Positions 14,862-47,097 are shown, counted from the first letter of the stretch. The stretch: 64,000 nucleotides of DNA from an uncultured Desulfobacterales bacterium (GCA_964632805.1 CAZWCS010000005.1:943-64942); one strand, 5' to 3'. Notes: generated by a model from the sequence alone, not told the origin. Translations and numbers: made by a program.

Positions 14862-16325
14862 TCAGGCGGACTGAGCGGTAATTTTCTCTCGCATTTGCCG
14901 ATATTGCAACAGAGCTCTGATGGCCTGGACCGCCCGTTCCGGGCCTTGATAGAACGGTACGCCGGCCCGGGCCAAAGACCGGGGAGGTAAATCCTGCCGG
15001 TCTTGATAAGAGAAACAGACTACCGGCTTCTGGGCGCTGTCAATGATGCTCCGGATATTCCGCGCGACCTCGTCAAAAACCTGCTCCAGGGTCTCTTCCA
15101 GCTTGTCTCTGGCAATACCCGCTTCCCGCAGGTACCGTTTCACCATGGCCGGCGACAGGTAAAAATACAGCAGAACCGTGTGGCAGGCGGGGTCTTTGAT
15201 CAAAACTTTGGGAATAGTGGTAAAGAACTGTATGACATCCTGCATAAAGGTGACATCGACCGGATTGCGCAGACTGCCCGTTGCCGGTACGATGCCGGAG
15301 AGGTCTTTTTTGGTCTCCTCCGCGGGCAGCGGCAGGGTGAATCCGACGCGTCCACAGGCGTCGGAAGCCACGGCCCCCGGCCCTCCGGAGTGGGTCTGAA
15401 CAAAAACCTGGTTGCCTTGCGGCAGGGGGAGCTGGCCCAGGGCCATACAGAAATCAAACAGTTCCGTCAAGGACTGGGCGCGGATAACACCGGCCTGACG
15501 GAAGATACCGTCGTACAATTCATCCGGTCCGGACAGGGCGCCCGTATGAGAAAGGGCCGCCTGCCGGCCAGTCTCCGAGCCGCCCACATAAAGGGCGACA
15601 ATCGGTTTATCCGGCACGATACGGCGCGCGGTTTCCACAAATTTCCGACCCCGGCGAAGTCCCTCAATGTAAAGGGCGATGACTTTTGTCTCCGGGCAAG
15701 CCCCCAGGTATTCCAAACAATCAACGATATCGGTGTTGGCTTCATTACCGACACTGAAAGCGGAACTGAAACCCAGCTTCATATTTTCCAGATAGGTAAA
15801 CATCTGGGTGACAAAACTGCCGCTTTGCGAGGCCAGCCCGATGAATCCCGCTTTGCAGGTATATTTGTGGGGAGTGGTATTAAAGCGGTGATAGGCGTTG
15901 GTTACCCCGATACAGTTGGGGCCGATCATGGTCATACCGTATTTCTCGGCAATGGCGATCAGTTCCTCCTGCCGCCGGGCCCCTTCTTCCCCGGCCTCCT
16001 TAAACCCGCCGGAGACCACAATGGCATGCCGGATGCCTTTTTCCCCGCAGGCGACCAACACTTCGCAGACAATTTTGGTGGGCAGTACGATTAAAGCGAC
16101 ATCCGGTACTTCGGGAAGATCTTTTACACTGGGATAGGCCTTCAACCCCAGCACCTCGGTCTCTTTGGGATGAACCGGATAGACGGTTCCGGAAAACGCA
16201 AAATCCAGCAGGGCATGTAAAATGACCGTGCCCATGGCGGTGTAGCGATTGGAAGCCCCGAATATGGCCACACTTTCCGGATGGATGATGGGAAAAAGTC
16301 GATGTTCCTGAAGAGATACCGGCAT
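14862..16325 (-). CDS. ADP-forming acyl-CoA synthetase, alpha subunit (CoA-binding plus CoA-ligase domains)
   Basis: 487-aa ORF. VAIFGASNRYTAMG, ASQSGS and SHTGALSG motifs parallel the N-terminal two-thirds of the fused enzyme at 8908-11103. AGGAGA RBS. Confidence 0.85.
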   Translation of the reverse strand: MPVSLQEHRLFPIIHPESVAIFGASNRYTAMGTVILHALLDFAFSGTVYPVHPKETEVLGLKAYPSVKDLPEVPDVALIVLPTKIVCEVLVACGEKGIRHAIVVSGGFKEAGEEGARRQEELIAIAEKYGMTMIGPNCIGVTNAYHRFNTTPHKYTCKAGFIGLASQSGSFVTQMFTYLENMKLGFSSAFSVGNEANTDIVDCLEYLGACPETKVIALYIEGLRRGRKFVETARRIVPDKPIVALYVGGSETGRQAALSHTGALSGPDELYDGIFRQAGVIRAQSLTELFDFCMALGQLPLPQGNQVFVQTHSGGPGAVASDACGRVGFTLPLPAEETKKDLSGIVPATGSLRNPVDVTFMQDVIQFFTTIPKVLIKDPACHTVLLYFYLSPAMVKRYLREAGIARDKLEETLEQVFDEVARNIRSIIDSAQKPVVCFSYQDRQDLPPRSLARAGVPFYQGPERAVQAIRALLQYRQMREKITAQSA

Positions 16326-24195: not shown

Positions 24196-25902
24196 ATGTT
24201 ACTGTTAAATCCGAAAAAATATCAGGATAGAAACTATCCGGATGAGCGGTCCAGAGAAATTATGCGGAAAACCATTGATTTTTTTGAGAACAAAGGCCTC
24301 AAAAAAATGAAGGAAGATTTTTACTCATTTGAGTTTACTTATGATTTTGCAGAATTTATTAAAAAGGAAGGAATTTTTGAAACCCTGTTTTTGCCTGCGG
24401 GGTATGGTGATTCCGACCAGTATTACAGCACCTATCGCATGTTTGAATTTTCTGAAATATGCGGCTTTTACGGCACAGCTTACTGGTATATGTATCATGT
24501 CTCAACGCTGGGGCTGGATCCCGTATTTCTGGGTGACAATGAGGAAGCCAAACAAAAAGCCGTGGCCACGTTGAGAGAAAATCCCTTATGCGCCTTTGGA
24601 TTGTCGGAAAAGGAGCATGGCGCCGATATTTACTCCACGGAAATGAAGCTTTACCCCCAGAAAGACGGCACCTACCTGGCCCGCGGCACCAAATACTATA
24701 TTGGCAACGGCAACGAAGCCTCAACCATCACCGTTTTCGGGAAGATGGCCGATACCGACGAATACGTCTTTTTTGTGGTAGATTCCCACCATGAAAAATA
24801 TGAATGCGTTCAAAATGTCATCCAGGCCCAGAATTATGTTTCCGAATTTATCCTGCATGACTATCCCATCACCGATGCCGACATTCTGTCCCGTGGCCCC
24901 AAGGCCTGGGACGACATGCTTAATACCATCAATATCTGCAAGTTCAATATCGGCTCCGGCGCCATCGGCATTGTCACCCACTCCTTTTATGAAGCCTTAA
25001 ACCATGCCGCGCATCGGAATGTTTACGGAAAATATGTTACCGACTTTCCGCATGTAAAACGCCTGTTCCTCGATTCCTACTGCCGCCTGGCCGGCATGAA
25101 GCTTTTCGGCCTGCGTGCCACGGATTACATGCGCGCCGCCAGCCCCACGGACAAACGCTATCTGCTTTACAATCCCATCATGAAAATGAAAGTGGCCATC
25201 CAGGGCGAAGAAATCCATGAAATGCTCTGGGACATCATCGCCGCCAAGGGGTTTGAAAAAGACAACTATTTTTCCCAGGCCGTGGTGGAATTAAAAGGCT
25301 TCCCCAAGCTGGAAGGCACCCGGCATGTCAATATGGCCCTGATTGCCAAGCTTATGCCGAATTTCTTTTTTAATCCCGGTGAATTTCCGGAAGTCCCCCG
25401 CATGAACGGTGACGAAAACGACGACTATCTTTTTCATCAGGGCAAAACCCGCGGCTACGGCAAGACCCAGTTTCACGATTTCCACCCGGTTTATGATTCC
25501 GTCGACCTGCCCAACGTCAATATTTTCAAAGAACAGATAAAAGCCTTTGAAGAATTTCTGATGCTCTCGGGCATGGAGATCGCCGACCAGATGCTTAATG
25601 ATTTTGATTTTCTGTTAAGCGTGGGGGAAATTTTCACGCTGGTCGCCTATGGTCAACTGATCATTGAAAGCGCCCAAATGGAAAAGGTTGACGATGATCT
25701 GCTGGATGAAATTTTTGATGTCTATGTCCGGGATTTTTCCCGTTACGCCCTGGATATTCACGGCAAGCAGACCGCCACTCAGGCGCAGAAAGACCAGTGC
25801 CTGAAAATGTTGAAAAGTCCGGTTGTTGATCCGGAAAAAGTTGAACGGGTGTTAAAGACGCATGTTTATTCTCTGGTGGATGCGTATACGATGAACCCGT
25901 AA
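24196..25902 (+). CDS. acyl-CoA dehydrogenase-family protein, atypical long form (568 aa)
   Basis: AAGGAG RBS. ACAD-like middle and C-terminal blocks (LSEKEHGADIYSTEM, TKYYIGNGNEA, ...GFEKDNYFSQAVVELKGFPKLEGTRHVN). The protein is more divergent than the ACAD at 6204-8021. Confidence 0.65.
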   Translation: MLLLNPKKYQDRNYPDERSREIMRKTIDFFENKGLKKMKEDFYSFEFTYDFAEFIKKEGIFETLFLPAGYGDSDQYYSTYRMFEFSEICGFYGTAYWYMYHVSTLGLDPVFLGDNEEAKQKAVATLRENPLCAFGLSEKEHGADIYSTEMKLYPQKDGTYLARGTKYYIGNGNEASTITVFGKMADTDEYVFFVVDSHHEKYECVQNVIQAQNYVSEFILHDYPITDADILSRGPKAWDDMLNTINICKFNIGSGAIGIVTHSFYEALNHAAHRNVYGKYVTDFPHVKRLFLDSYCRLAGMKLFGLRATDYMRAASPTDKRYLLYNPIMKMKVAIQGEEIHEMLWDIIAAKGFEKDNYFSQAVVELKGFPKLEGTRHVNMALIAKLMPNFFFNPGEFPEVPRMNGDENDDYLFHQGKTRGYGKTQFHDFHPVYDSVDLPNVNIFKEQIKAFEEFLMLSGMEIADQMLNDFDFLLSVGEIFTLVAYGQLIIESAQMEKVDDDLLDEIFDVYVRDFSRYALDIHGKQTATQAQKDQCLKMLKSPVVDPEKVERVLKTHVYSLVDAYTMNP

Positions 25903-25954: not shown

Positions 25955-27127
25955 ATGCAGAAAGATCCGATTAAAATTAATATTGCCGATCTGGAAGAAA
26001 TCCTGGGCCGGCACATTGTCTCGGCGGCCGAGGTGAATTACGCCATCAAAATCGTCGGCCATCCGGGTATCGGGAAATCCGAAGTCGTCCGGCAGGTCGC
26101 GCAGAAACACAACTTTCTGTTTATTGACACCCGGCTGGCCTTTAAGGAAAACATCGACCTGGGCGGGTATCCGGTGCCGGACCATGATGCCCGGAAAATG
26201 ATTTACTATCGGCCCCATTTTATTCCGCCGGCTGCGGTTCCGGATCCCTATGACGGGGTTGTCTGGTTTCTGGATGAAGTCAATCGAGCGCACCCGACCG
26301 TTATCCAGACGCTGTTCCAGATTATCACTGAGGGCGTCTGTGGTGAGCACCGGCTTCCCCTCAACACTGCCGTTGTGCTGGCCGGAAACCTGGGGGACAG
26401 CGATGCCACGGCCTTGACTGAGTTTGATGACGCTGCGCTGGACGGCCGCCTGGCGGTTTTTCATCTCTTTCCGGAAGCAGCCTTATGGCTGAAGTGGGCC
26501 CATCGCGAAGCCCTTCATCCGGCTGTTACCCGCTACATCGCCAGTTTTCCGGACCGGCTCTGGGATGAGGTCAACATTTATCCCAACCCCCGGGGTTGGC
26601 ATCAGGTTTCCAGTGCGCTGGTGCACACCTATGATTTGGCCGATACGGAACGCCTGCGGCAGTACTTCCTGGCCGCGTGCGGCCCGGCATTGGAAAAAGT
26701 GATCCAGTCCCTGATCGGACGCGTTGCCGCGGATGATTTTATTATGCAACTGACCGCCCCCCGAAAACTTTCTACTCAGGATATCCTGTCCGGGGACCCG
26801 CAAAAAACAAAAGAGATACAACAGGGCAATATCCCGGCCGAAGACATTCTCTGGGCTCTTTCCGGCGCCCTTCTCTATTTGCGAGAGATCCGGAGGGGGG
26901 GTGCGTTGGGCAATCCGGACACAGCAGATTCGGACCTGATCACCCTGGCCAATGTGCTGACGGTTATCGGTCTTTGCCGGGCGGACATGCGGCTTTCCTT
27001 TTTTTATCAGCTTCTTTCCCAGGCGGCCATTTTTACCCAGATCCCGGCGGCCATCCAATCCCTTAAAGACAGCGTTCTGGCAGAGGAGCTGACCCGGCGG
27101 TTTTCCGGCCTGTTGGAGGAGGAATGA
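25955..27127 (+). CDS. MoxR/AAA_5-type AAA+ ATPase
   Basis: Walker A IVGHPGIGKSEV, Walker B VVWFLDEVNRAHP, sensor region VVLAGNLGD. The stop codon overlaps the next ATG (ATGA at 27124-27127). Confidence 0.8.
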   Translation: MQKDPIKINIADLEEILGRHIVSAAEVNYAIKIVGHPGIGKSEVVRQVAQKHNFLFIDTRLAFKENIDLGGYPVPDHDARKMIYYRPHFIPPAAVPDPYDGVVWFLDEVNRAHPTVIQTLFQIITEGVCGEHRLPLNTAVVLAGNLGDSDATALTEFDDAALDGRLAVFHLFPEAALWLKWAHREALHPAVTRYIASFPDRLWDEVNIYPNPRGWHQVSSALVHTYDLADTERLRQYFLAACGPALEKVIQSLIGRVAADDFIMQLTAPRKLSTQDILSGDPQKTKEIQQGNIPAEDILWALSGALLYLREIRRGGALGNPDTADSDLITLANVLTVIGLCRADMRLSFFYQLLSQAAIFTQIPAAIQSLKDSVLAEELTRRFSGLLEEE

Positions 27128-28509
27128 ACACCGAAGCCCTGGCCAAGTGGGACCGTGTCCTGACCCGCTTGTGGCATGTCAGCCGGTTTTCCTCCTATTT
27201 TTATCAGGCCGTGCGCCTGGTGCCGGATTCCAACCTGCCGACCCTGGCGCTGATCGTATCGGCCCACCGTTTTTCCCTGATTTTCAATCCCCCGTTTGTC
27301 CTGAAAACCCGCCGGGACGATTTATTGGGTCTGCTCATTCATGAAATGCTTCATGTCATTTTAAACCACGACCATCGCGCCCGCCCCGGCCAGGACCCGT
27401 TTCTGCAGAATCTGGCTCAGGACATGGTGATCAACTCCTATCTGGAAAAGCATAAAACCACCTTTTTTACGCCCAAAACCGGGCAGCGGCCTGTCTCACT
27501 GGTCCTTCCGCCGGGCCTGCCGCACCTGCCCGCGGAACTGATTCACCAGACAGAGGCAGGGAAACCCTCTCGGGGCCGCCTCGGGGATTACACCTGGGAG
27601 GAAGTTTATGCCTGGCTTTTAAAAACACAGCAGGAAACCGGGATATTCTCCCTGAACGGACCGGGGAGCGCGCACGGCCTGCCGGAGTATGCCCCGGTCT
27701 CCTGGAGGAAATCTGATACTGGTTCCGCCCTGCAGGGACTGACCTTTATCAATGATAACGGCCAACCTCTGCCAACGGGTATGCATCTGTTTGACCGGCT
27801 TACCGTCAATAATGATAAAGATGCCGGGAAAAAGCGCCTCATGCGGTTTATCCAGTCCCAAAATGACTGCCGCCAGGACCGTATTTTTCAGGAAGTAACC
27901 GGCTTGATCGAAACGCCCCGACCGGTGAACACCGCCCGCTGGAAAACAAGAATCAAGCACCTGGTTCGGCGCGCAGCCCCGTCCAGCCGGTGGGAATATT
28001 CGTCCGCCCGCTTTAACCGGCGGTTTTTTGCCCAGGGCATTTACGCGCCCGGCAGACGCTATCTGGAAAAAACGTTGATAACCGTGGCCGTAGATGTTTC
28101 CGGGTCCATGGCCGCCCATCCCCGGGAACTGGAATCCGCTTTTGGCGCGGTTGAAGACCTGTTGCCCGATTTTTACGTCAGCCTGATATGCGTTGATCAG
28201 GAGGTGTTTGTGCCCCGCAGGCAGAAAAACACTTCAGCCCGGCAGAAAACCAATTGTCCGTTTTTCTATAAAAAAGGGGACTGGCAATTCATCCGCACGG
28301 GCAGCCGGGGAACGACCTTTTTTGCCCCCCTGTTTAATGAATATCTGGCCGGGCACCGGGAGATGGTGATTGTCATTACCGACGGCTATATTTACGATCT
28401 GCAGCGCATCATTCCCTATTTTCCCACGCTTTGGGTGCTGGCCGCCAACGGCAATCCGGATTTTGCGCCGCCCTTTGGAACCGCGGTGACAATCGGTGAA
28501 CAGCCATGA
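27124..28509 (+). CDS. HExxH metallopeptidase-like domain fused to a VWA-like domain (recalled as DUF2201-type partner of MoxR ATPases)
   Basis: GGAGGAGGA RBS. Zincin motif LLIHEMLHVILNHDH in the N-terminal third. MIDAS-like ITVAVDVSGSM in the C-terminal third. ATGA overlaps on both sides. Confidence 0.75.
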   Translation: MNTEALAKWDRVLTRLWHVSRFSSYFYQAVRLVPDSNLPTLALIVSAHRFSLIFNPPFVLKTRRDDLLGLLIHEMLHVILNHDHRARPGQDPFLQNLAQDMVINSYLEKHKTTFFTPKTGQRPVSLVLPPGLPHLPAELIHQTEAGKPSRGRLGDYTWEEVYAWLLKTQQETGIFSLNGPGSAHGLPEYAPVSWRKSDTGSALQGLTFINDNGQPLPTGMHLFDRLTVNNDKDAGKKRLMRFIQSQNDCRQDRIFQEVTGLIETPRPVNTARWKTRIKHLVRRAAPSSRWEYSSARFNRRFFAQGIYAPGRRYLEKTLITVAVDVSGSMAAHPRELESAFGAVEDLLPDFYVSLICVDQEVFVPRRQKNTSARQKTNCPFFYKKGDWQFIRTGSRGTTFFAPLFNEYLAGHREMVIVITDGYIYDLQRIIPYFPTLWVLAANGNPDFAPPFGTAVTIGEQP

Positions 28510-29024
28510 CAACCAAAAATTTGCAACAGTTTTATAAGACCGGGAAATTGCCGGATGCAGATCACGGGCGTCTGCTTGAGCAGATAATTGCCCACGAAGA
28601 TCCGGAATTTGTTTTCCGGGCCGGGCGCCTCTGGCCAACCTTTGATTATGAAAAAGGCCTGCAGGCGCTGATTCAGTTTAAAAGCGCAAAATTTATCTAT
28701 CACGCCGGACTGGAATGGACCGCCTTTAACTGGTCGCGGGCCATGGAGGCTCTCTGTGCCCTGGAAGACGCCGCCTATCTTTTTTATGCCGGCGCTCACT
28801 GGAACACCTTTGACTATGATCTCGGCATGACTGCTTTGCTGAAAACAAAAAACTGTGAGTACCTGTTTAGAGCCGGAGTATTGTGGCCGTCATTTGATTA
28901 TGACCGGGCCTGGCGTGTTCTTGAAGCCGATATTGAAAACGGTGAAGTCTGGCGCGGCCTGGCCTTTGAAAATCCCGGCTGGAAGGCGGCCTTATCTGCT
29001 ATGTGGAAAAAATTCTGGCAATAG
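28506..29024 (+). CDS. uncharacterised protein built of four tandem 28-residue repeats
   Basis: 172-aa ORF, translationally coupled to the VWA gene. Repeats: DPEFVFRAGRLWPTFDYEKGLQALIQFK / SAKFIYHAGLEWTAFNWSRAMEALCALE / DAAYLFYAGAHWNTFDYDLGMTALLKTK / NCEYLFRAGVLWPSFDYDRAWRVLEADI. Confidence 0.7.
   Translation: MTTKNLQQFYKTGKLPDADHGRLLEQIIAHEDPEFVFRAGRLWPTFDYEKGLQALIQFKSAKFIYHAGLEWTAFNWSRAMEALCALEDAAYLFYAGAHWNTFDYDLGMTALLKTKNCEYLFRAGVLWPSFDYDRAWRVLEADIENGEVWRGLAFENPGWKAALSAMWKKFWQ
28599..28934 (+). repeat. 4 x 84-nt (28-codon) tandem coding repeats, conserved at protein level
   Basis: Consensus xxx[FY][LIV][FY]xAGxxWxxF[DN][YW]xx[GA]hxALxxxx, read directly from the translation. Confidence 0.8.
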
Positions 29025-29313
29025 TAAAACGAAAAAAGACGGATTTCGCAAGCCGTACACCCACCGCCAATGAACCGTTATCTGAAAAAACGTCTTTTTT
29101 CGATTCCGGTACAAGGGCAGGCCCGGGTTTTCCAAAAAAGCATCAATGGTGTTCGAATCCCTTGCTTTATGATATAGATAATATTCAGTCCGATTTCCAA
29201 TTTGAGCGTTGGACGCTTTGCAGATTTCGTCTCTGAACGTGCGAAGGAGGTTCCCCGGCAACAAAGTGCCTGTTTGGGAGCGAGCCGGAGGCGGGATCCG
29301 GGAGATGACCGTT

Positions 29314-31776
29314 ATGCCGAAAATTCAGAAAACCGTTTATATCAGAAATCATTTTGAACAATGGTTTGTTCTGGTGATCCTGGTAGCGGTGGTGATTATC
29401 AATTACCTCATTCCGCAAAAAGTCGCCTTTCTTAACTTTTACTTTTTGCCGGTGATTCTGGCCGGCTTGTTCATGGGGGTAAAGGAGTCTGTTCTTGGCG
29501 CCCTGCTCTGCATTCTGCTGGTAGCCGGCTATGTCTACTGGCATCCCGGTTTGTTTCTCATGCCCCAATCCGGCCCGGAACTGATTTATTACCTGCTGGC
29601 CTGGAGCGGATTTCTGATTCTTTCCGGAGCTGTAGTGGGAAAACAGCATGACCGGATTTCTCTGCAAATGTCCGAAGCCCGGGCCCTGAATACGATGCTG
29701 CAGCGCCAGCAGGAAGCCCTCAACAGTGCTCATGCCGCTCTGAAAGATCACAGCGACAATCTGGAAGCCAAAGTAGCCGAACGTACTGCGGCGTTGCATA
29801 CGGCCAATAAGGAATTGCTGCTGGCCAAGGAAGAAGCGGACGAGGCGACCCGTGCAAAAAGCCTGTTTCTGGCCAATATGAGCCATGAAATCCGGACGCC
29901 CATGAATGCCATCATCGGCCTGAGCGACCTGATCATGAATACTGAGCTCGATGACCGGCAGCGAAATTATTTTTCGATTATCCGCTCCTCCTCCTGGTCT
30001 TTGCTGAATCTTATCAATGATATTCTGGACTTTTCCAAGATTGAGGCCGGCCGGATGGATTTTGATCTGGCTCCTGTCAATTTGCGTCAGCTGGTGGAAG
30101 AGGTGGCCGATCTGTTCCTGCTCCAAGCGCAGAAAAAAAATCTGGAATTGATTATTGATATCGCCCCGGAGGTACCGGCCTGCATCACAACGGACCCCTT
30201 CCGTCTGCGTCAGGTGTTAATGAACCTGATGTCCAACGCCGTTAAATTCACCGAGCAGGGAGAAGTCTGTGTGTCGATTGAAAAAGTATCAAAAACGACA
30301 CAGCGCGTCGAACTCCGTTTTCTCGTCCGGGACACCGGCATCGGTCTTGACGAAAAGAAGTCCGAGGTTCTCTTTGATGCCTTTTCGCAGTCGGACGCCT
30401 CCATTACGCGGCAATACGGCGGGACCGGTCTGGGATTGGCGATTTGCAAATCAATCGTTACCATGATGGGAGGAAAAATCAGTGTTAAGGGCGCGCCGGG
30501 CCACGGCAGTACTTTTTTCTTTACGGCGGCTTTTGACTTCTCGGAAGAAACCGCCACGGAAACGGCACTCCCGGAAACAATAACCGGCTTGTCGCTTTTG
30601 CTGGTGGATGATAATCCGGTAACCCGGCAGGTGCTGACCCGGAATTTGCAAAGTCTCGGTTTTTCACCGGAAACTGCTGATTCAGGCAAGAGCGCACTCC
30701 GGCACTATTATGCGCACACCTTTGACATCTTGTTTGTTGATGAGCATCTTCCGGATATGGAGGGCATTGCGCTGGCTGAAGCCATAAAGGCGGCTGATCC
30801 GGACAACAGCCCGCCGATTCTTTTTCTGTCAACCAGCGGCCTGCAGCAGGAAGAGCAGCGTTTGCATGGTTGCGGTATTCAGCGCTGTCTGGCCAAACCG
30901 GTCAAGTCTTCCGTTTTGCGCGGCGCCATCATGGAACTGTTCGGCCCTGGAGGAGAACGTCCGCTGTCTCCGGAACTGGAAAAAACGCAAACAGAAGAAC
31001 TGGCGGGAATTTCTCTTTTGCTGGTAGAAGACAATTCGGTGAATCAACTGGTCGTCAAAGAAATTCTCCGGGATGTCGGCGTTGCTCCGGATTGTGCCGC
31101 CAACGGACGGGAAGCTTTGGCCATGATAGGAGAAAAATCGTACGACGCGGTTTTAATGGATGTGCAGATGCCGGTTATGGACGGCCTGGAGGCCACAAAA
31201 GCCATTCGAAAGGGAGGCAATACCGGTCTGCCCATTATTGCCATGACGGCCCATGCCGGTTCCGAAGACCGGGAAAAATGCCTGTCCGCAGGTATGAACA
31301 GCTATATCAGTAAACCGATCAGCAGGGAACAGCTTTTATCCCATTTGAAAAAATATCTTACCTTCGCTGATGGCCCCTCAAAAACGCCGCCTGTAACGCA
31401 GGTAAAGAAAAACAAAGAATGGCCGGATTCTTTACCGGGCCTGAAGGTGGAGGCAGCTCTGAAGCGTCTGGGCATTACCTGGGAAAAATACAAAACCATT
31501 TTGTTGGCGTATGAGGAGACCTTCCAAAAATTTTCCGATTCGTTTTGGGACCACATCGGCGCCGGTGATTTTGATACGGCTAAACGTATGGCCCACACGG
31601 TAAAAGGAGCGGCCTTGAATCTGGCGGCTGAAGATCTCGCCGCCAGGGCCAAAGAGCTGGAAGACCGGTGCGCCGGCGGAGATGCCGATTCCATTCGGGC
31701 AGCTTTTTCCGCAGCAGGCCTCGCTCTGGCCACGGTCCGGGAATCCATTGCCACCATTCGCGGGCTGACAGAATAA
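29314..31776 (+). CDS. hybrid sensor histidine kinase (TM sensor, HisKA, HATPase_c, two REC domains, Hpt)
   Basis: H-box [12 protein letters not shown]-box [12 protein letters not shown]1 LLLVDDNPV...[14 protein letters not shown]2 [10 protein letters not shown]...[12 protein letters not shown], Hpt [15 protein letters not shown] 29314 lies 9 nt after GGGAG; ATG 29305 is an alternative. Confidence 0.9.
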
Positions 31777-31904
31777 AACTTTCCGGATGGAAGATGGAAT
31801 CTAGAAACGGCACAAAAGTCTTGTATTATGGAACGATTTGGATACAATAAATTTTCACTTTCTTCTTTCTTCACCCGCAAAACAACCAGCCGGAAGGGGG
31901 AAAA

Positions 31905-32993
31905 ATGCCGAATGTTCTTGTGGTAGATGATGATCCGGTCTTTTTGTCACTGCTTACCGAGGGCCTGGAAAAATTTGCCAAGAGTTTTGCCGTAATGAAA
32001 GCCGCGGACGGGGCCGAGGCAATGGAGCTGCTGGGAAAAGAGAGCATTTCCCTGCTGATTACGGATATCATGATGCCCAACGTAGACGGACTGACCCTGC
32101 TGGCATATGTGAATGAGCATCATCCCTCCATACCCTGCTTTGTCATGACTGCCTCTGAAAATCCGGCGGCCATAAAAAAAAATCTGGGCAAAGACATTCT
32201 GCGGTTTTTTTGTAAGCCGATCTCTGCGGAAAAGCTGGGACCGGAAATTATCAAAACTCTTCAGGAAGGAACCCCCCGGGGGGCGGTGCACGGAATTTCC
32301 GTGATCAGTTTTTTACAAATGATCGAGTTGGAACAAAAGACCTGTCTTTTTGAGGTTCATCTGCCGGGCCGGGAAAAAGGGCTTTTCTTTTTTGAAGACG
32401 GTATTCTGTTCGATGTGGTCTGCGGGGAGCTCAGGGGAGAAGAAGCGGCCCTGACGATGCTGACGCATGAGCGGGCGACTTTCAAATTCAAGCGCCTGCC
32501 GCGGAAAAAAATTGCCAAACGCCTGGACACCTCGATTAAGGAGTTGGTGGAAAAAAAGTCTGAGCCGGCGGAAGAAGATCTGCCCGACCTGGTGCCGTTT
32601 GAAGAGATAGCCCAAAAGCCCGGAGAAACCACCGCACCCGAAAAGCCGAAACCGGCGAAAAACAGTATTTTTGATAAGGAACTGGGCCTAACGGGCCGCT
32701 ATATATCGACAAGACATGGCAAAGGCCCCATAACCATTCTGCGGTTATCCCGAAGCGGGCTTTTGTTTCGACAAAGAACGCTTCAACTTTTTGACGAGGG
32801 GGATAAACTGGAGGTTGAATTCGAGCTAGACGACAACCAGAACACGTTAATCCGAAAAACAGTCAGGGTAACAGCCTCCACCCGGTTTCAAGTCAGCGCC
32901 GAGTTCACCTCAACCACCCATTATGACGCGCTGGGACCGTATCTTCTGTATAAAAATCTGGACCGGATGGTTGCCTTTGATCCTTCCGATTAG
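31905..32993 (+). CDS. response regulator: REC, DUF4388-like and PilZ-like domains
   Basis: REC: VLVVDDDPVF...LLITDIMMPNVDG. Middle: GISVISFLQMIELEQKTCLFEV (DUF4388-like). C-terminus: RYISTR ... LSRSGLLF resembles degenerate PilZ RxxxR/DxSxxG motifs. GGGGGA RBS. Confidence 0.75.
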   Translation: MPNVLVVDDDPVFLSLLTEGLEKFAKSFAVMKAADGAEAMELLGKESISLLITDIMMPNVDGLTLLAYVNEHHPSIPCFVMTASENPAAIKKNLGKDILRFFCKPISAEKLGPEIIKTLQEGTPRGAVHGISVISFLQMIELEQKTCLFEVHLPGREKGLFFFEDGILFDVVCGELRGEEAALTMLTHERATFKFKRLPRKKIAKRLDTSIKELVEKKSEPAEEDLPDLVPFEEIAQKPGETTAPEKPKPAKNSIFDKELGLTGRYISTRHGKGPITILRLSRSGLLFRQRTLQLFDEGDKLEVEFELDDNQNTLIRKTVRVTASTRFQVSAEFTSTTHYDALGPYLLYKNLDRMVAFDPSD

Positions 32994-33018: not shown

Positions 33019-36000
33019 TCACGCTCCGGTCCCGACCGGGAAATTGTCCGCCGCCGCAATAATGGTTTCGGCGATCTTTTCCGCAGATTTGCCAAACAGA
33101 TCATGAATATCGATAAAATCCAAAAATTTGTCCTGCCATACCAGGCTGTTTTCCTGGACATAGTTTTTAATTCGTTCAAATTTCCCGCCCAAAGCCTTTT
33201 TCCGGGCGAACAGAGAGGCATCCTTTTTCAAAGCGATATTTAACAACAGGATGTTGCGAATCATGCCGCCTGTGGCCGGAGAGGAGGAAAGCACCGGAAT
33301 GATTACAATGTGCCGGTCATCCTTGCGGCCTTTACCAATATAGACATTACCTTCCCGTACAATGATTTTTTTGGTCCCTTTCAGCCGGTTGTCCGTTTCC
33401 ACCCGCGAAGGAATGTTCTGCAGACTGCCTTCCTTGCGTAACAGGGATATGGTGGAAGTATCGGTAGGCACCCCCAGAAGATTCAGGTCGTCAACTTCAT
33501 AGAGAATCGAACCTTTTATTGTCGCCACCACTTCCTGTACGTTTTTCAGCACCACAATATTGCTGTTGGTCAACTGCGTCAGACTCAAGCCGTTATGCTC
33601 CAATGCCTCAAAGAGAAGGCCCGTTACGGCTTCCGTGATACGGCTGGTGCCTACAGTCACGGTCTTGGCCTGATGTTTGATGGCATCTACCGGCCGGGCC
33701 ATCTGGTTGATGGATCGCCCCAGATAGTCGAAGAGGGTGTCGATCATATTTGGGGCGGTGCCCTTTCTGCCGAAGTCCAGTTCAAAATCCGCCAGCGGCA
33801 GGCGACCGGAGAGATACTTGAGCAAAAGCGCCAGGTCCGAAGCAAAGGCAATGGTTACGGGAAGGTCCGGATCATTGCGCGCCTGTCGGAAACGGTTGTA
33901 AAACTGGAGCACTTTCTCCCGAAATTCGTTTTCCAGGACAATTTCGAACAGATCAAGCCCCTGTTGCCGGTATTGTTCAATCTCCCGCTGCATCTGGTCC
34001 CGGAATTCGCTCAGCATCCGGGAGCCCTCGTTGATGGCCAGGGCGGCGTAGTATCCCCAAAGATGCCCGGCAAAGGTGTTGACCACCGGCCCGAAGTGTT
34101 CCGCAGTGGGCGGCACGGGAATCAGACCTTCCGCATAGGGGCGAAACCGTTCTTCCCCTTCGTCGGTAATCACCACCGGCGCCGCTTTGTGAGCCCGGAA
34201 GATGGCGGTATCTTTAACGATATCGTCCACCACCCCGGGCCGGGCGCCGGCGGCGCAGACCAGAATCAGGGGTTCCGCAGACAGATCGATGTGTTTTTTG
34301 TTTTCCACAAAATCCGAGGAAATCGTTTTGTAACACAGTTCGCTCAGTTTAATGCGGATTTCGTCGGATGAGGCCTTGTTGGGTCCGCTGCCCACAGTGG
34401 CCCAATAGGTTTTGGTTCCGGCCAGCCGACGAGCACACTTCCTGATGGCCTGGCGATTTTGGAAAATGCGGGTCAGAGTGTTTGGCAGACGCAGCAGCTG
34501 TTTGATTTCCTGGGTAATAAAGTCAGCGCTCCGGGCCCCTTTCAAACCGGAAATATACAGTCCCAGCAGGGCGCCGGCCACTACCTGGGCGTAAAAAGCC
34601 TTGGTGGAGGCCACCGACATTTCAATATCCCGGCCGGTACTGGTATAAAACACCCCGTCCACTTTAAAAGTAATGTCGGAATCCCGCCGGTTGACGATGG
34701 CCAGAGTGCGGGCGCCGCGTTTGCGAACCATATCCAGGGCCCGGTTGGTATCAGTGGTGGTGCCGGACTGGCTTATGGCTACGACCAGGGTGTCGGTCAT
34801 GCTTTGGCCGTCGCTGCCTTCCTGCAGATTAAAACCGCTCAATTCCGAAGATTTCAGGGAACAGACGGACATGGCCGGGTCACCCAGATAGTACTGGGTG
34901 ATTTCCGCCGCGGCCAGTGCGGCTACCCCGGCGGTGCCCTGGCCGATGAAAAAAATACGGCGTACCGCTTCCGTGCTCAAATCCGCCGCCAGTTCCGCGG
35001 GAATCACCGTTTCGTCCAACAGCACCTCGCAGGTGTTGGGATCATGACTGTTGATTTTCCAACTGTTGTGGAGAGTATTTTCGATGGAACGCGGGGCTTC
35101 GGAAATTTCCTTCAGAAAATAGTGGGGAAAACCCTGACGGTCCACATCCCGGGAGGTAATTTCCGTGGAACTGATGTCCGCGGCGGTAAACACGGCGGCC
35201 GCACCGTCATAGTGACTGACCGTAATTCCGGAAATACCACCGGTTTCCAGGTTTAAGCAGACGATCTGACCATCCCGCTCGCCGGCATTCATTTTTATGA
35301 ACCGATCAGTTTCTTCAACAATACCATATAGTTCTGAGGCAACGATATAATAGTCTTCGGCCAGTCCGATAAAGAGCGCCTGCCCGCTGCCTCTCTGGGC
35401 GAAAAACAGTTTGCCCGGAGCCAGATCGGTTTGCAGGGATATGGCGTGGGCGCCGGTAAAATCGTTCAAGGCCAGGCGAAAGGACTCGGCCAAAGCGTTG
35501 CCCTGCTTCAAATATTTTTCAATACGAAGCGGAATAATTTTGGTGTCGGTAGTGATGGCATCGGGAATCACTTCCCCCGCCGCTTCGTGCTCGGCTTTCA
35601 ATTCCTGAAAATTGTCAATGTCCCCATTTAAGGCCACCTGCAGGATATGTCCGGGAGCGCCGCTGCTTTCTTTTAAGCGACTGTCTACCGGATGGCAGTT
35701 GGCCTCCGTAATGGTACCCACTGACGCCCAACGGGTATGGGCGGAGATGGTAAAGGTATCGCAGGAAAAGCCCAGCAGCGCTTGAAAAATCATATCCTGG
35801 CGGATCTGTTTGCGCAGAAAGGCGATATTGTCTCCCAAGCTGCCGATTTCCGCTGCGAATTTATAAACAAAGGCCAGGGATAGACGGTTTTCTCCTTCCC
35901 GCTGGTAAAAGGAGAGCGAGTTGTTAACCAGCACTTCGGGGTTGCTCCGGGCGGAAAACTCTTCCCAGAGTCCGTCCCGGGACAGAATCGCCTGAAAGCG

Positions 36001-36591
36001 ATCGAAGTCTCCGGTGTCCATGGTCAGCATGATGGAAATGCCGGCGGAATCCCGTCCGCGTACCTCCAGCCGGTCCAGGCTGTTCAAAGCCGTATTGATT
36101 TTTTTCAGCAAAGCGGCGGCAGTCAGGGTTTGTACTGTCTCTCCGGCCAGGGCTGCAGTTTTGGAAACATTGGCCGCCACCTCATTGCCCAGACACCAGC
36201 AGATATCCCGGACTTTTTCCAGCCGGCTGGCGACAATATCCGCCGAATTCCGGTCTAGCTGACCTATGGCCTGCTCCAGGGCGTCGTGTTCATTGTTGAC
36301 AACCTGTTGCAACCGCACCGCCAAATCGGAAACCGTGCAGCAGTCGCCCTCGGTGGTAAACAGATGAAAAAAAGCGGCATCCGTTTTAAGGGCCTGGGCG
36401 GTTTCCGCCAGCCGGGAGAGAATCTGGTCTCCTCCCAGGTAGTGATCCACCGTCAGAATATTCTTCGTGATACAAGCCTGACAGGTATGACCTTCCAGCT
36501 CTGTAATCAGTCGTTCTATCTTGGCGATATCCGCTGGCGCGTTATTCGGTTGCGGACCGACAACCGGGACAATCCCCACTATTCCGCACAT
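33019..36591 (-). CDS. giant (1190 aa) GlmS-like protein: class-II (Ntn) glutamine amidotransferase plus two SIS domains, with large insertions
   Basis: Starts MCGIVGIV (Cys2 nucleophile). RGRDSAGIS appears only at about residue 178. SIS motifs FFIGQGTAGVAA and VAISQSGTTTDT, with a second SIS around WATVGSGPNKASSDE. About 330 extra C-terminal residues. Confidence 0.7.
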   Translation of the reverse strand: MCGIVGIVPVVGPQPNNAPADIAKIERLITELEGHTCQACITKNILTVDHYLGGDQILSRLAETAQALKTDAAFFHLFTTEGDCCTVSDLAVRLQQVVNNEHDALEQAIGQLDRNSADIVASRLEKVRDICWCLGNEVAANVSKTAALAGETVQTLTAAALLKKINTALNSLDRLEVRGRDSAGISIMLTMDTGDFDRFQAILSRDGLWEEFSARSNPEVLVNNSLSFYQREGENRLSLAFVYKFAAEIGSLGDNIAFLRKQIRQDMIFQALLGFSCDTFTISAHTRWASVGTITEANCHPVDSRLKESSGAPGHILQVALNGDIDNFQELKAEHEAAGEVIPDAITTDTKIIPLRIEKYLKQGNALAESFRLALNDFTGAHAISLQTDLAPGKLFFAQRGSGQALFIGLAEDYYIVASELYGIVEETDRFIKMNAGERDGQIVCLNLETGGISGITVSHYDGAAAVFTAADISSTEITSRDVDRQGFPHYFLKEISEAPRSIENTLHNSWKINSHDPNTCEVLLDETVIPAELAADLSTEAVRRIFFIGQGTAGVAALAAAEITQYYLGDPAMSVCSLKSSELSGFNLQEGSDGQSMTDTLVVAISQSGTTTDTNRALDMVRKRGARTLAIVNRRDSDITFKVDGVFYTSTGRDIEMSVASTKAFYAQVVAGALLGLYISGLKGARSADFITQEIKQLLRLPNTLTRIFQNRQAIRKCARRLAGTKTYWATVGSGPNKASSDEIRIKLSELCYKTISSDFVENKKHIDLSAEPLILVCAAGARPGVVDDIVKDTAIFRAHKAAPVVITDEGEERFRPYAEGLIPVPPTAEHFGPVVNTFAGHLWGYYAALAINEGSRMLSEFRDQMQREIEQYRQQGLDLFEIVLENEFREKVLQFYNRFRQARNDPDLPVTIAFASDLALLLKYLSGRLPLADFELDFGRKGTAPNMIDTLFDYLGRSINQMARPVDAIKHQAKTVTVGTSRITEAVTGLLFEALEHNGLSLTQLTNSNIVVLKNVQEVVATIKGSILYEVDDLNLLGVPTDTSTISLLRKEGSLQNIPSRVETDNRLKGTKKIIVREGNVYIGKGRKDDRHIVIIPVLSSSPATGGMIRNILLLNIALKKDASLFARKKALGGKFERIKNYVQENSLVWQDKFLDFIDIHDLFGKSAEKIAETIIAAADNFPVGTGA

Positions 36592-47058: not shown

Positions 47059-47097
47059 AAATTTTTTCTCCTTTGCTGTAATTGCTCTGCTTCCGTT

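What the first reader, a model, noticed from the sequence alone, without database searches (positions are those of the whole stretch)
25955..29024. Translationally coupled MoxR-AAA+ / HExxH-VWA / repeat-protein triad with no known client
Three plus-strand genes are joined by ATGA stop/start overlaps at 27124-27127 and 28506-28509.
- Gene 1 is an AAA_5/MoxR-type ATPase (Walker A GHPGIGKS, Walker B VWFLDEVNRA).
- Gene 2 combines a zincin-type HEMLHVILNH motif with a C-terminal VWA-like fold carrying a MIDAS-like DVSGS.
- Gene 3 is a 172-aa protein made almost entirely of four 28-residue repeats. I cannot assign it to any named family.

MoxR+VWA pairs are established remodelling or cofactor-insertion modules (NorQ/NorD, CbbQ/CbbO, RavA/ViaA). 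The peptidase-VWA branch, which I recall as DUF2201, has no experimentally defined substrate that I know of. Tight coupling to a repeat protein suggests a dedicated adaptor or client, or a proteolytically gated switch. This is the best candidate in the window for an undescribed system.
Basis: partly seen in the sequence, partly recalled or inferred. Interest (0 to 1): 0.7.

Follow-up and report, generated by a model that had tools for sequence, protein, structure and literature searches.

The report
Conserved AAA+ / zincin-VWA / solenoid operon
Three tightly coupled genes (an ATP-driven motor, a protease-plus-adhesion-domain protein and a small helical-repeat protein) form a real, conserved and uncharacterised module in sulfate-reducing bacteria and spirochaetes; it is a cellular cousin of two phage N4 genes of unknown function and is usually co-expressed with one particular acyl-CoA dehydrogenase.

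Summary
The triad is not a chance neighbourhood.

- Anchored on gene 2, 78 of 80 testable loci also carry gene 3.
- Anchored on gene 3, 67 of 68 loci have gene 2 directly upstream.
- HExxH and the full MIDAS motif are invariant in 36 orthologues.
- The module occurs in Desulfobacterota and Spirochaetota.

New findings:
1. Genes 1 and 2 are full-length homologues of the phage N4 gp24-like ATPase and the gp25-like zincin/vWFA protein. Both have unknown function and also occur on plasmids. The "MoxR" label itself is only weakly supported.
2. Gene 3 is a capped orthologue within a wider, unnamed 28-residue helical-repeat family.
3. In about half to two-thirds of loci the triad lies beside one specific 568-aa acyl-CoA dehydrogenase. 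It is co-directional in Desulfobacterota and divergent, behind an operon-fused TetR gene, in Spirochaetota. The link is one-sided.

The best reading is an ATP-driven remodelling/processing complex of the NorQD/CbbQO type, with gene 3 as a dedicated third subunit and the dehydrogenase as the leading but unproven client. I class it as a new variant of a known kind, of moderate interest.

The parts
24196..25902 (+). 568-aa acyl-CoA-dehydrogenase-like gene (VLCAD/ACAD9-length, catalytic KLEGT retained). Candidate partner or client, 52 nt upstream of gene 1.
   Evidence: Pfam Acyl-CoA_dh_M and Acyl-CoA_dh_1. PDB sequence matches to ACADs. An orthologue at 57-87% identity lies within 7 kb of gene 1 in 34 of 50 genome loci and 13 of 29 metagenome loci. 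KLEGT is present in 58 of 58 sequences. No terminator-like site lies between it and gene 1.
25955..27127 (+). Gene 1: 390-aa AAA+ ATPase (AAA_5 class, phage N4 gp24-like).
   Evidence: AAA_5 matches all 30 orthologues. phrog_1297 scores 3.3e-49 over residues 19-357. hhalign to the phage CB4 'N4 gp24-like' ATPase gives 98% probability. Invariant residues include Walker A G35-S42, D107/E108, N145 and R165.
26057..26080 (+). Walker A motif GHPGIGKS.
   Evidence: Read from the sequence. G35, P37, G38, G40, K41 and S42 are invariant.
26273..26278 (+). Walker B acidic pair D107-E108.
   Evidence: Read from the sequence; invariant.
27124..27127 (+). ATGA stop/start overlap between gene 1 and gene 2.
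   Evidence: A GGAGGAGG Shine-Dalgarno sequence lies just upstream.
27124..28509 (+). Gene 2: 461-aa protein with a zincin domain, a conserved linker and a VWA/MIDAS domain (DUF2201 family, phage N4 gp25-like).
   Evidence: Pfam. phrog_1314 scores 1.5e-37 over the full length. hhalign to the CB4 gp25-like protein gives 99.4%. The AF2 model has pLDDT 72.8. Foldseek matches VWA domains including NorD and Rea1-MIDAS, and weakly matches SprT/Spartan and MATCAP for the N-terminal domain.
27340..27375 (+). Zincin motif HEMLHVILNHDH (H73, E74, H77, H82, H84).
   Evidence: All five residues are invariant in 36 orthologues, as are Q99, D100, M101 and N104.
27991..28056 (+). Strongly conserved linker that is predicted to be disordered (W290..Y292..RFNRR..GIYAPGR311), just before the VWA domain.
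   Evidence: Invariant or near-invariant columns. pLDDT is below 50 for residues 287-298 and 307-314. The motif is shared with phage gp25.
28093..28107 (+). MIDAS D324-x-S326-x-S328. The remaining MIDAS residues are T398 and D420.
   Evidence: All are invariant in 36 orthologues.
28506..28509 (+). ATGA stop/start overlap between gene 2 and gene 3.
   Evidence: The same 4-nt overlap occurs in 32 of 75 related loci.
28506..29024 (+). Gene 3: 172-aa alpha-helical hairpin solenoid.
   Evidence: The AF2 model has pLDDT 84.7 and 12 helices. No Pfam, NCBIfam or PADLOC family matches. Foldseek finds nothing below E=0.2 in PDB and gives a best E of 2.9e-3 in BFVD.
28572..28907 (+). Four 28-residue repeats (residues 23-134), consensus roughly aYxAGxxWxxFDaxxGxxxL.
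   Evidence: Period analysis. One G and one W are invariant in each repeat across 24 orthologues.
28908..29021 (+). Conserved C-terminal cap (AWxxLE..GExWRGxAFExPxWKxAL..W) that marks true gene-3 orthologues.
   Evidence: Conserved columns W136, L139, E140, G146, W149, R150, A153, W159, L163 and W167. The cap is present in only 13 of 151 exhaustive-search representatives.

Best explanation
The three genes encode a soluble cytoplasmic three-subunit machine. Gene 1 is an AAA+ ring ATPase. Gene 2 is its co-factor, with an N-terminal zinc-peptidase domain, a conserved flexible linker and a C-terminal VWA domain carrying a complete MIDAS site. Gene 3 is a capped alpha-solenoid that acts as a dedicated third subunit, either an adaptor that holds or presents the target, or a regulatory cap on gene 2. 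By analogy with NorQ/NorD and CbbQ/CbbO (inferred, not shown), the ATPase grips the VWA domain and uses ATP to pull on the gene-2 linker. The MIDAS metal binds an acidic residue of a client, and the zincin site cuts or clamps a client peptide. The module is co-expressed with one specific 568-aa acyl-CoA dehydrogenase in most genomes. It therefore most likely acts on that flavoenzyme (activation, repair or turnover), or at least within acyl-CoA oxidation. Shown here: the triad, its conservation, intact catalytic and MIDAS residues, homology to phage N4 gp24/gp25, and the dehydrogenase/TetR linkage. Inferred: complex formation, the roles of the subunits and the identity of the client.
For: Triad conservation. 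The gene-2-anchored genome census gives gene 1 in 76 of 82 loci and gene 3 in 78 of 80 testable loci. The gene-3-anchored metagenome census finds gene 2 upstream in 67 of 68 loci. In the 41 loci with at least 3.2 kb upstream, gene 2 is present in all 41 and gene 1 in 38. Junctions are tightly coupled.

Functional residues. Walker A and B, N145 and R165 are invariant in gene 1. HExxH with H82/H84 and the MIDAS residues D-x-S-x-S, T and D are invariant in gene 2.

Folds. Foldseek matches VWA domains including NorD in the NorQD complex and Rea1-MIDAS, and gives weak SprT/Spartan matches for the N-terminal domain. Gene 3 models confidently as a helical solenoid.

Paradigm. In NorQD a VWA finger enters the AAA+ pore, the linker is remodelled and the MIDAS site binds the target (PMC13036017, PMC9976466).

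Localisation. None of the three proteins has a TM-like segment.

Dehydrogenase link. An orthologue at 57-87% identity lies within 7 kb in 34 of 50 genome loci and 13 of 29 metagenome loci. Two architectures are seen: co-directional with gaps of 22-253 nt in Desulfobacterota, and two tandem copies divergent from a TetR gene that precedes gene 1 in 16 Spirochaetota loci, overlapping it by 4 nt in 9 of them.
Against: No physical interaction was tested, and multimer modelling was not available. The dehydrogenase link is one-sided. The dehydrogenase family is far larger (more than 8000 clusters at E<=1e-50, against 221 for gene 2). Four of four close orthologues on long contigs have no triad within 7 kb. 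Sixteen of 50 triad loci have no dehydrogenase nearby. The enzyme clearly does not generally need the triad, and part of the linkage could be inherited synteny in two lineages. The nearest sequence relatives are in phages and plasmids, where no dehydrogenase is involved. About six Spirochaetota loci carry a methyl-accepting chemotaxis gene between genes 1 and 2, which hints at other partners. The census rests on my own crude ORF calling and on related genomes that are not independent samples.
Confidence: 0.45

Rival explanations
1. The triad is real, but its adjacency to the dehydrogenase is inherited synteny or shared regulation only. The true client is some other, unlinked cellular protein or complex, as with RavA/ViaA, whose targets are not encoded next door.
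For: Sixteen of 50 genome loci and 16 of 29 metagenome loci lack the dehydrogenase nearby. Dehydrogenase orthologues commonly occur without the triad nearby. In the L012 genome the dehydrogenase orthologue is on the same 2.28-Mb contig but not adjacent. The dehydrogenase gene has 45-48% G+C against 53-58% for the triad.
Against: Two different operon architectures in two phyla both place the triad under the same promoter region as this one dehydrogenase. No other neighbour family recurs across lineages.
Confidence: 0.25
2. A domesticated mobile-element module. Like its phage N4 gp24/gp25 and plasmid relatives, it acts in phage-host or plasmid conflict, or in DNA or virion-related remodelling, with gene 3 as a sensor or decoy. 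This would resemble the ternary MoxR-vWA conflict systems of Kaur et al. 2020.
For: The best profile matches are to phage families. Relatives sit among N4-like replication and early genes and next to conjugation genes on plasmids. The logic is ternary, with a lineage-specific third gene in each branch. A DarT-Macro pair lies directly downstream in L001. Gene-3-type repeats occur on a phage-like contig. The ternary MoxR-vWA precedent is PMC7159879.
Against: No PADLOC model matches. Gene 3 has no match in phage or plasmid records. Chromosomal synteny with metabolic and housekeeping genes is stable, and the module is fused to a TetR operon. Sequences are strongly conserved rather than diversifying: 67% mean column identity in gene 1. 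No effector domains or mobile-element genes flank most loci.
Confidence: 0.18
3. A proteolytic switch in which gene 3 itself is the substrate. The ATPase feeds or exposes the solenoid to the zincin domain, and its cleavage or release signals to another system such as chemotaxis receptors or two-component systems.
For: Obligate coupling of gene 3 to gene 2. A variable repeat number, with proteins of 172 to about 275 aa. MCP genes inserted within the operon in about six loci. A hybrid histidine kinase and a response regulator lie directly downstream in the window.
Against: The signalling neighbours are not conserved across loci. Nothing marks a cleavage site. A stoichiometric, translationally coupled partner is more typical of a subunit than of a consumable substrate.
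Confidence: 0.1
4. An ordinary AAA+/VWA pair with an unrelated repeat protein that happens to lie downstream.
For: Most proteins sharing the 28-residue repeat (138 of 151 representatives) are other architectures. The two examined are not near AAA+/VWA genes.
Against: Capped orthologues follow gene 2 in 67 of 68 and 78 of 80 loci across two phyla, mostly with overlapping or near-abutting junctions.
Confidence: 0.02

Closest known systems
Phage N4 gp24-like ATPase with gp25-like vWFA/pfam13203 protein (phrog_1297 / phrog_1314; Schitoviridae, some jumbo phages, and AAA + 'VWA-like domain' pairs on plasmids)
   Same: This is the closest match by sequence. Both proteins are homologous over nearly their full length. 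They share HExxHxxxxH, the RxNRRY..G.Y.P linker motif, the DVSGS MIDAS, TDGYI and the C-terminal PPFG. The ATPase gene lies upstream of the zincin-VWA gene. The function is unknown in the literature (PMC2784036, PMC6992544).
   Different: In phages and plasmids one or two unrelated genes lie between the two genes, and there is no gene-3 relative. The window's branch is chromosomal, restricted to Desulfobacterota and Spirochaetota, has gene 3 after gene 2, and is linked to a dehydrogenase and a TetR gene. Identity to the phage proteins is only 24-28%.
NorQ/NorD and CbbQ/CbbO (MoxR-class AAA+ with a VWA partner; cofactor insertion or enzyme reactivation)
   Same: An AAA_5-class ATPase sits next to a protein built as N-domain, flexible linker and C-terminal VWA with a full MIDAS. 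The candidate client is encoded next door. Foldseek finds the NorD VWA domain among the top matches. This is the mechanistic template.
   Different: The N-domain of gene 2 is a zincin with an intact catalytic motif. There is an obligate third solenoid subunit. No nitric oxide reductase or Rubisco is present. Gene 1 does not reach any MoxR-specific profile threshold.
Ternary MoxR-vWA conflict systems (VMAP, iSTAND, FtsH and beta-propeller types; Kaur et al. 2020, PMC7159879)
   Same: The logic has three components: an AAA+, a vWA protein and a lineage-defining third protein. Some of those third proteins are all-alpha. There is a faint bpMoxR match.
   Different: There are no effector domains, no PADLOC match, no hypervariability and a metabolic neighbourhood. 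The third component is a small capped repeat protein unlike the described ones.
RavA/ViaA
   Same: An AAA+ with a VWA co-factor acting on metabolic or respiratory enzymes.
   Different: No sequence relationship was detected, ViaA has no zincin domain, and there is no third subunit.
CLCA proteins (eukaryotic self-cleaving zincin + VWA)
   Same: A zincin HExxH domain and a VWA domain lie in one polypeptide. The CLCA1 VWA domain is the top Foldseek match.
   Different: CLCA proteins are extracellular eukaryotic proteins with no AAA+ partner. I regard the shared domain combination as probably convergent, which is an inference.

Membership tests
AAA+ ATPase, AAA_5 class (gene 1) | Pfam AAA_5 above the gathering score | tested here: met
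   28.1 bits against a cut-off of 22. All 30 orthologues match, best E 2.4e-8.
AAA+ ATPase, AAA_5 class (gene 1) | Walker A, Walker B, sensor-1 Asn and Arg finger conserved | tested here: met
   G35-S42, D107/E108, N145 and R165 are invariant in 30 orthologues. Assigning N145 and R165 to sensor 1 and the Arg finger is by motif position, which is an inference.
MoxR family proper (gene 1) | Match to a MoxR-specific profile (AAA_3, bpMoxR) or to solved MoxR structures | tested here: not met
   bpMoxR scores 17.2 bits against a cut-off of 27, and only 6 of 30 orthologues match at E<0.01. There is no AAA_3 hit. PDB sequence and profile searches give only weak ClpB NBD2 matches.
MoxR family proper (gene 1) | Helix-2 insert and pre-sensor-1 hairpin; hexameric ring | not tested
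MoxR family proper (gene 1) | Adjacent VWA/MIDAS partner gene | tested here: met
   Gene 2 follows gene 1 in 76 of 82 loci.
DUF2201 zincin-VWA family (gene 2) | PF13203 DUF2201_N above the gathering score | tested here: met
   43.1 bits against 23.2. The domain is precomputed in all listed orthologues.
DUF2201 zincin-VWA family (gene 2) | PF09967 VWA-like domain above the gathering score | tested here: inconclusive
   The window protein scores 23.7 bits against 26.4. Many orthologues carry the precomputed hit. Foldseek supports the fold.
DUF2201 zincin-VWA family (gene 2) | HExxH zinc site with catalytic Glu and a third ligand | tested here: met
   H73, E74, H77, H82 and H84 are invariant in 36 sequences. 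Which residue is the third ligand was not determined.
VWA/MIDAS domain (gene 2, C-terminal) | DxSxS ... T ... D MIDAS motif and VWA fold | tested here: met
   D324, S326, S328, T398 and D420 are invariant. Foldseek gives probability 0.98-1.0 to the CLCA1, NorD and ITIH1 VWA domains, although E-values are only about 2e-3 and the model's pLDDT is 72.8.
Phage N4 gp24/gp25-like pair | Full-length profile matches of both proteins | tested here: met
   phrog_1297 scores 3.3e-49 and phrog_1314 scores 1.5e-37. hhalign gives 98.1% and 99.4%.
Phage N4 gp24/gp25-like pair | Residence in a phage or plasmid genome | tested here: not met
   The loci are chromosomal with housekeeping neighbours. The best plasmid and phage hits are only 22-33% identical.
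Known anti-phage defence systems (PADLOC-DB 2.0) | Any component matching a defence-system model | tested here: not met
   No family matches any of the three proteins at E<=0.1.
Ternary MoxR-vWA conflict systems (Kaur 2020) | Third component is VMAP, iSTAND, FtsH or a beta-propeller; effector domains fused to the vWA protein | tested here: inconclusive
   No effector, FtsH, STAND or propeller domain appears in any of the three proteins. No VMAP profile was available to test against gene 3.
Named helical repeats (TPR, Sel1, HEAT, ankyrin, LRV) for gene 3 | Match to the repeat profile or a close structural match | tested here: not met
   There is no Pfam or NCBIfam hit. The Foldseek best in PDB is E=0.23, to designed repeat and Sel1 proteins.
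Acyl-CoA dehydrogenase (upstream gene) | ACAD middle and C-terminal domains and the catalytic Glu | tested here: met
   Pfam, PDB matches, and KLEGT in 58 of 58 sequences. No N-terminal ACAD domain hit was found, and substrate and flavin binding were not tested.

The most novel reading that the evidence does not exclude
The triad is an ATP-dependent activase or quality-control protease dedicated to a flavin-dependent acyl-CoA dehydrogenase. That would be the first AAA+/VWA system known to service a flavoenzyme of beta-oxidation, with a new kind of capped alpha-solenoid as client adaptor. Solving it would also reveal what the long-unexplained phage N4 gp24/gp25 core genes and their plasmid relatives do: remodel or process a specific host or element protein.
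Probability: 0.15. Interest if true: 0.75.

Novelty: new variant of a known kind. Interest (0 to 1): 0.52.

Why it matters
AAA+/VWA couples are a recurring solution for maturing or rescuing difficult enzymes such as Rubisco, nitric oxide reductase, CO dehydrogenase and chelatases. The zincin-VWA (DUF2201 / N4 gp25-like) branch has no assigned function, even though it is a conserved gene pair of N4-like phages and occurs on plasmids. The cellular branch described here offers three things the phage version lacks. It has an obligate third subunit, a concrete candidate client encoded alongside, and a TetR-controlled operon in cultured organisms (Desulfatibacillum, Desulfosudis, Desulfoluna). That makes the function of the whole family experimentally approachable. 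It also defines an unnamed 28-residue helical repeat found in about 150 protein clusters.

Tried and rejected
1. The word-indexed homologue search with gene 3 gave only 2 hits and suggested an orphan. That was an artefact of divergence: tblastn, an exhaustive HMMER search and a pattern scan found many orthologues.
2. PDB sequence and profile searches for genes 1 and 2 gave only faint ClpB matches for gene 1 and nothing for gene 2.
3. Foldseek of gene 3 against PDB and BFVD gave only generic helical-repeat matches.
4. A PADLOC scan gave nothing.
5. Rfam and tRNA scans of the whole window gave nothing.
6. Literature searches for DUF2201, COG3864 and MoxR + acyl-CoA dehydrogenase turned up no functional study.
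7. I tested whether the 'middle' genes of the phage and plasmid versions are divergent gene-3 relatives. They are not (hhalign probability <=0.2%).
8. I looked for another neighbour family recurring in loci that lack the dehydrogenase. The neighbours there (permease, Omp85-like, glycosidase and methyltransferase genes, identified by eye from their sequences) are lineage-specific synteny and were rejected as partners.
9. I considered the dehydrogenase as an obligate client and rejected the strong form of that idea, because close orthologues commonly lack the triad nearby.
10. The promoter and terminator scans were uninformative beyond showing no terminator-like site between the dehydrogenase gene and gene 1.

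Full report
OBSERVATION. The three + strand ORFs exist exactly as described: 25955-27127 (390 aa), 27124-28509 (461 aa) and 28506-29024 (172 aa). They are joined by ATGA stop/start overlaps at 27124-27127 and 28506-28509. The motifs read by eye are all present: GHPGIGKS, VWFLDEVNRA, HEMLHVILNH and DVSGS. Gene 3 has a sharp 28-residue period. Its BLOSUM62 self-score is +0.79 at lag 28 and +0.75 at lag 56, against about -1 at every other lag. That gives four good repeats, followed by a degenerate fifth repeat and C-terminal cap. Pfam gives AAA_5 for gene 1, DUF2201_N plus a just-sub-threshold DUF2201 VWA-like domain for gene 2, and nothing for gene 3. NCBIfam and PADLOC add nothing.

IS THE TRIAD REAL?

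(a) Conservation of the catalytic and MIDAS residues. Gene 2 has many orthologues at 40-79% identity in Desulfobacterota and Spirochaetota. In an alignment of 36 of them, H73, E74, H77, H82 and H84 are invariant. So are the complete MIDAS residues D324, S326, S328, T398 and D420.

(b) Neighbourhood censuses. A scan of one genome per GTDB species with the gene-2 alignment returned 80 loci. I analysed these together with two loci found earlier and the window.
- Gene 1 precedes gene 2 in 76 loci.
- A gene-3 orthologue follows gene 2 in 78 of the 80 loci where the contig extends far enough.
- Two loci (L046, L060) genuinely lack gene 3 in the available flank.
- In two loci (L012, L021) gene 3 is displaced by 2.5-5 kb.

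The first word-indexed search with gene 3 had found only two relatives. That was a sensitivity artefact.

For an independent census anchored on gene 3, I aligned 24 orthologues and scanned metagenome contigs.
- Of 68 loci with at least 500 bp upstream of gene 3, 67 have gene 2 there.
- All 41 loci with at least 3.2 kb upstream have gene 2, and 38 of them have gene 1.
- The single exception, L152, has a fragment of gene 1 fused directly upstream of gene 3, so it is a degraded locus.

Junctions are tight across the family. Gene 2 to gene 3 is a 4-nt overlap in 32 of 75 loci, and is at most 30 nt or overlapping in 63 of 75. The triad is therefore a conserved operon, not a chance neighbourhood.

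WHAT THE PARTS ARE.

Gene 1 is an AAA+ ATPase with invariant Walker A and B motifs, N145 and R165. All 30 orthologues match AAA_5. The 'MoxR' label is weak, however. bpMoxR is far below threshold, there is no AAA_3 hit, and PDB searches give only faint ClpB-NBD2 matches.

The informative matches come from the phage library. Gene 1 matches phrog_1297 'ATPase' at 3.3e-49 over residues 19-357. Gene 2 matches phrog_1314 at 1.5e-37 over its full length. In the N4-like Pectobacterium phage CB4 these are the 'N4 gp24-like' ATPase and the 'N4 gp25-like' protein. Profile comparison gives 98% and 99.4% probability. For gene 2 the alignment runs through the HExxH, the RxNRRY..G.Y.P linker motif, DVSGS, TDGYI and the C-terminal PPFG. 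Published N4-like genome papers list gp24 as a putative AAA ATPase and gp25 as vWFA/pfam13203, both of unknown function (PMC2784036, PMC6992544).

Distant relatives also sit on plasmids near conjugation genes and in a Vibrio jumbo phage. In each case one or two other genes lie between the ATPase and the zincin-VWA gene. Those middle genes are unrelated to gene 3, although the two plasmid ones are homologous to each other. Gene 3 has no match in phage or plasmid records. Each branch of this family thus appears to carry its own third component.

The AlphaFold model of gene 2 has pLDDT 72.8. It shows an N-terminal helical/beta domain holding the HExxH and a C-terminal alpha/beta domain. Foldseek matches VWA/MIDAS domains, including NorD in the 2026 NorQD complex structures and Rea1-MIDAS. 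The N-terminal part gives weak matches to SprT/Spartan and MATCAP zincins. Between the two domains lies a segment (about residues 287-314) that is nearly invariant yet predicted to be disordered.

Gene 3 models confidently (pLDDT 84.7) as a stack of helical hairpins. It has no significant structural neighbour and belongs to no named repeat family.

An exhaustive HMMER search found 154 representative clusters carrying the repeat. Only 13 of the 151 I could examine have the characteristic C-terminal cap of gene 3. The other 138 are other architectures of up to 1624 aa. The two whose context I could fetch are not near AAA+/VWA genes, and one lies on a phage-like 226-kb contig. The repeat is therefore a wider, undescribed module, and the capped orthologue is what is specific to the triad.

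None of the three proteins has a TM-like segment.

CONTEXT: A CANDIDATE CLIENT. The gene 52 nt upstream (24196-25902) encodes a 568-aa acyl-CoA-dehydrogenase-like protein with the catalytic KLEGT conserved in 58 of 58 sequences. An orthologue at 57-87% identity lies within 7 kb of gene 1 in two sets:
- 34 of 50 genome loci that have enough upstream sequence;
- 13 of 29 gene-3-anchored metagenome loci.

It does so in two different architectures. In Desulfobacterota it is co-directional and immediately upstream, with gaps of 22-253 nt. In Spirochaetota two tandem paralogues are transcribed divergently. There, a TetR-family gene directly precedes gene 1 in 16 loci and overlaps it by 4 nt in 9 of them. 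It faces the dehydrogenases across an intergenic region of 50-350 bp in most loci, and up to about 2 kb in two. That is the classic divergent TetR arrangement, and it implies co-regulation (an inference).

The link is one-sided. The dehydrogenase family is much larger: more than 8000 clusters at E<=1e-50, against 221 hits for gene 2. Four of four close orthologues on long contigs have no triad within 7 kb. Sixteen of 50 triad loci have no dehydrogenase nearby.

No other neighbour family recurs across lineages. In about six Spirochaetota loci a methyl-accepting chemotaxis gene is inserted between genes 1 and 2.

MECHANISM. The best-supported reading is a three-subunit, ATP-driven remodelling/processing complex. 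Conservation of the ATPase, zincin and MIDAS residues argues that all three activities are used. In the NorQ/NorD paradigm, a VWA finger sits in the AAA+ pore, ATP-driven twisting remodels a linker, and the MIDAS site binds an acidic residue of the target (PMC13036017, PMC9976466). That paradigm fits the domain-linker-VWA layout of gene 2 and its invariant disordered linker. Gene 3, which is translationally coupled and obligate, is most simply a stoichiometric subunit, either an adaptor or a regulator. The dehydrogenase is the leading candidate client, for activation, rescue or turnover, but this is inference from gene order only.

Rivals:
- The client lies elsewhere and the dehydrogenase adjacency is inherited or regulatory synteny.
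- The module is derived from a mobile element and acts in conflict. For: the phage and plasmid relatives, and a DarT-Macro pair next door in L001. Against: no PADLOC hit, stable metabolic synteny and strong sequence conservation.
- It is a proteolytic switch that consumes gene 3.

The chance-neighbour reading is refuted.

COMPARISON AND NOVELTY. The module works like a MoxR/VWA chaperone couple, but a MoxR-specific membership test failed for gene 1. By sequence it belongs with the uncharacterised N4 gp24/gp25-like (DUF2201) family. It differs from every described relative in three ways: the obligate capped solenoid subunit, the chromosomal distribution restricted to two phyla, and the dehydrogenase/TetR linkage. 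It lacks the effector logic of the ternary MoxR-vWA conflict systems (PMC7159879). I found no paper describing it. I rate it a new variant of a known kind.

CAVEATS. Gene calls in the related loci come from my own longest-ORF procedure and homology clustering. The loci are phylogenetically related, so the counts are not independent events. The pattern scans retrieve orthologues, not all homologues. No protein-protein interaction was modelled or tested.

Noticed in passing
window 24196-25902 versus 25955-29024: The acyl-CoA dehydrogenase gene has clearly lower G+C (0.445-0.478 per kb) than the three genes that follow it (0.53-0.58). This could reflect codon usage of a highly expressed gene, or separate origins of the two parts.
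   Followed up: no
P0124 (L173:6001-7929), P0127 (L171:2607-4895), P0137 and about 135 further clusters: The 28-residue 'aYxAGxxWxxF' helical repeat of gene 3 builds many larger proteins (up to 1624 aa) that match no Pfam family. One is on a 226-kb phage-like contig with a Peptidase_S74 gene. This is an unnamed repeat family.
   Followed up: partly
L012, L013, L015, L021, L029 (for example L029:8369-9967): In a subset of Spirochaetota loci one or two methyl-accepting chemotaxis protein genes (PF00015) are inserted between genes 1 and 2. This is the same 'middle slot' that holds unrelated genes in the phage and plasmid versions.
   Followed up: partly
L001:10703-12429 and L001:2118-5427: In the closest long contig, a DarT gene and a Macro-domain gene (a DarTG-type toxin-antitoxin pair) lie directly downstream of the triad, and two large ankyrin-repeat genes lie upstream of the dehydrogenase gene.
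   Followed up: no
L174:4344-5513 (NC_048654.1) and phrog_1314: The N4 gp25-like zincin/VWA protein is annotated 'HNH endonuclease' in RefSeq phage records and in PHROGs. The alignment shows a DUF2201-type protein with HExxH and MIDAS, so this looks like a propagated misannotation.
   Followed up: partly
L169:2463-6116 and L170:2781-6011: The plasmid versions (Burkholderia conjugative plasmid, Rhodovastum plasmid) share their own conserved ~300-aa middle gene (30% identity between the two) between the AAA ATPase and the DUF2201 gene. They lie near type IV secretion or partition genes.
   Followed up: partly
L152:2319-3281: This is the only gene-3 locus without gene 2. A short fragment of gene 1 (residues about 214-261) lies immediately upstream of an intact gene 3, which suggests a deletion that removed gene 2.
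   Followed up: partly
window 33019-36591 (- strand): A 1190-aa ORF with an N-terminal glutamine amidotransferase domain and a SIS domain. It is about twice the length I recall for ordinary GlmS-type enzymes (about 600 aa, from memory, not tested), and large regions have no Pfam match.
   Followed up: no
window 6204-8021 (-), 8908-11103 (+), 14862-16325 (-), 45877-48945 (-): The window holds other acyl-CoA metabolism genes: a second, unrelated-type dehydrogenase (605 aa, with Acyl-CoA_dh_C; 21% identity to the first), two ADP-forming acyl-CoA synthetase-like genes, and a thiolase next to an AMP-binding acyl-CoA synthetase.
   Followed up: no
window 29209-32993 (+ strand): Directly downstream of gene 3 lie a hybrid histidine kinase (HisKA, HATPase_c, two receiver domains, Hpt) and a response regulator with a DUF4388 domain. 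This neighbourhood is not conserved in related loci.
   Followed up: partly
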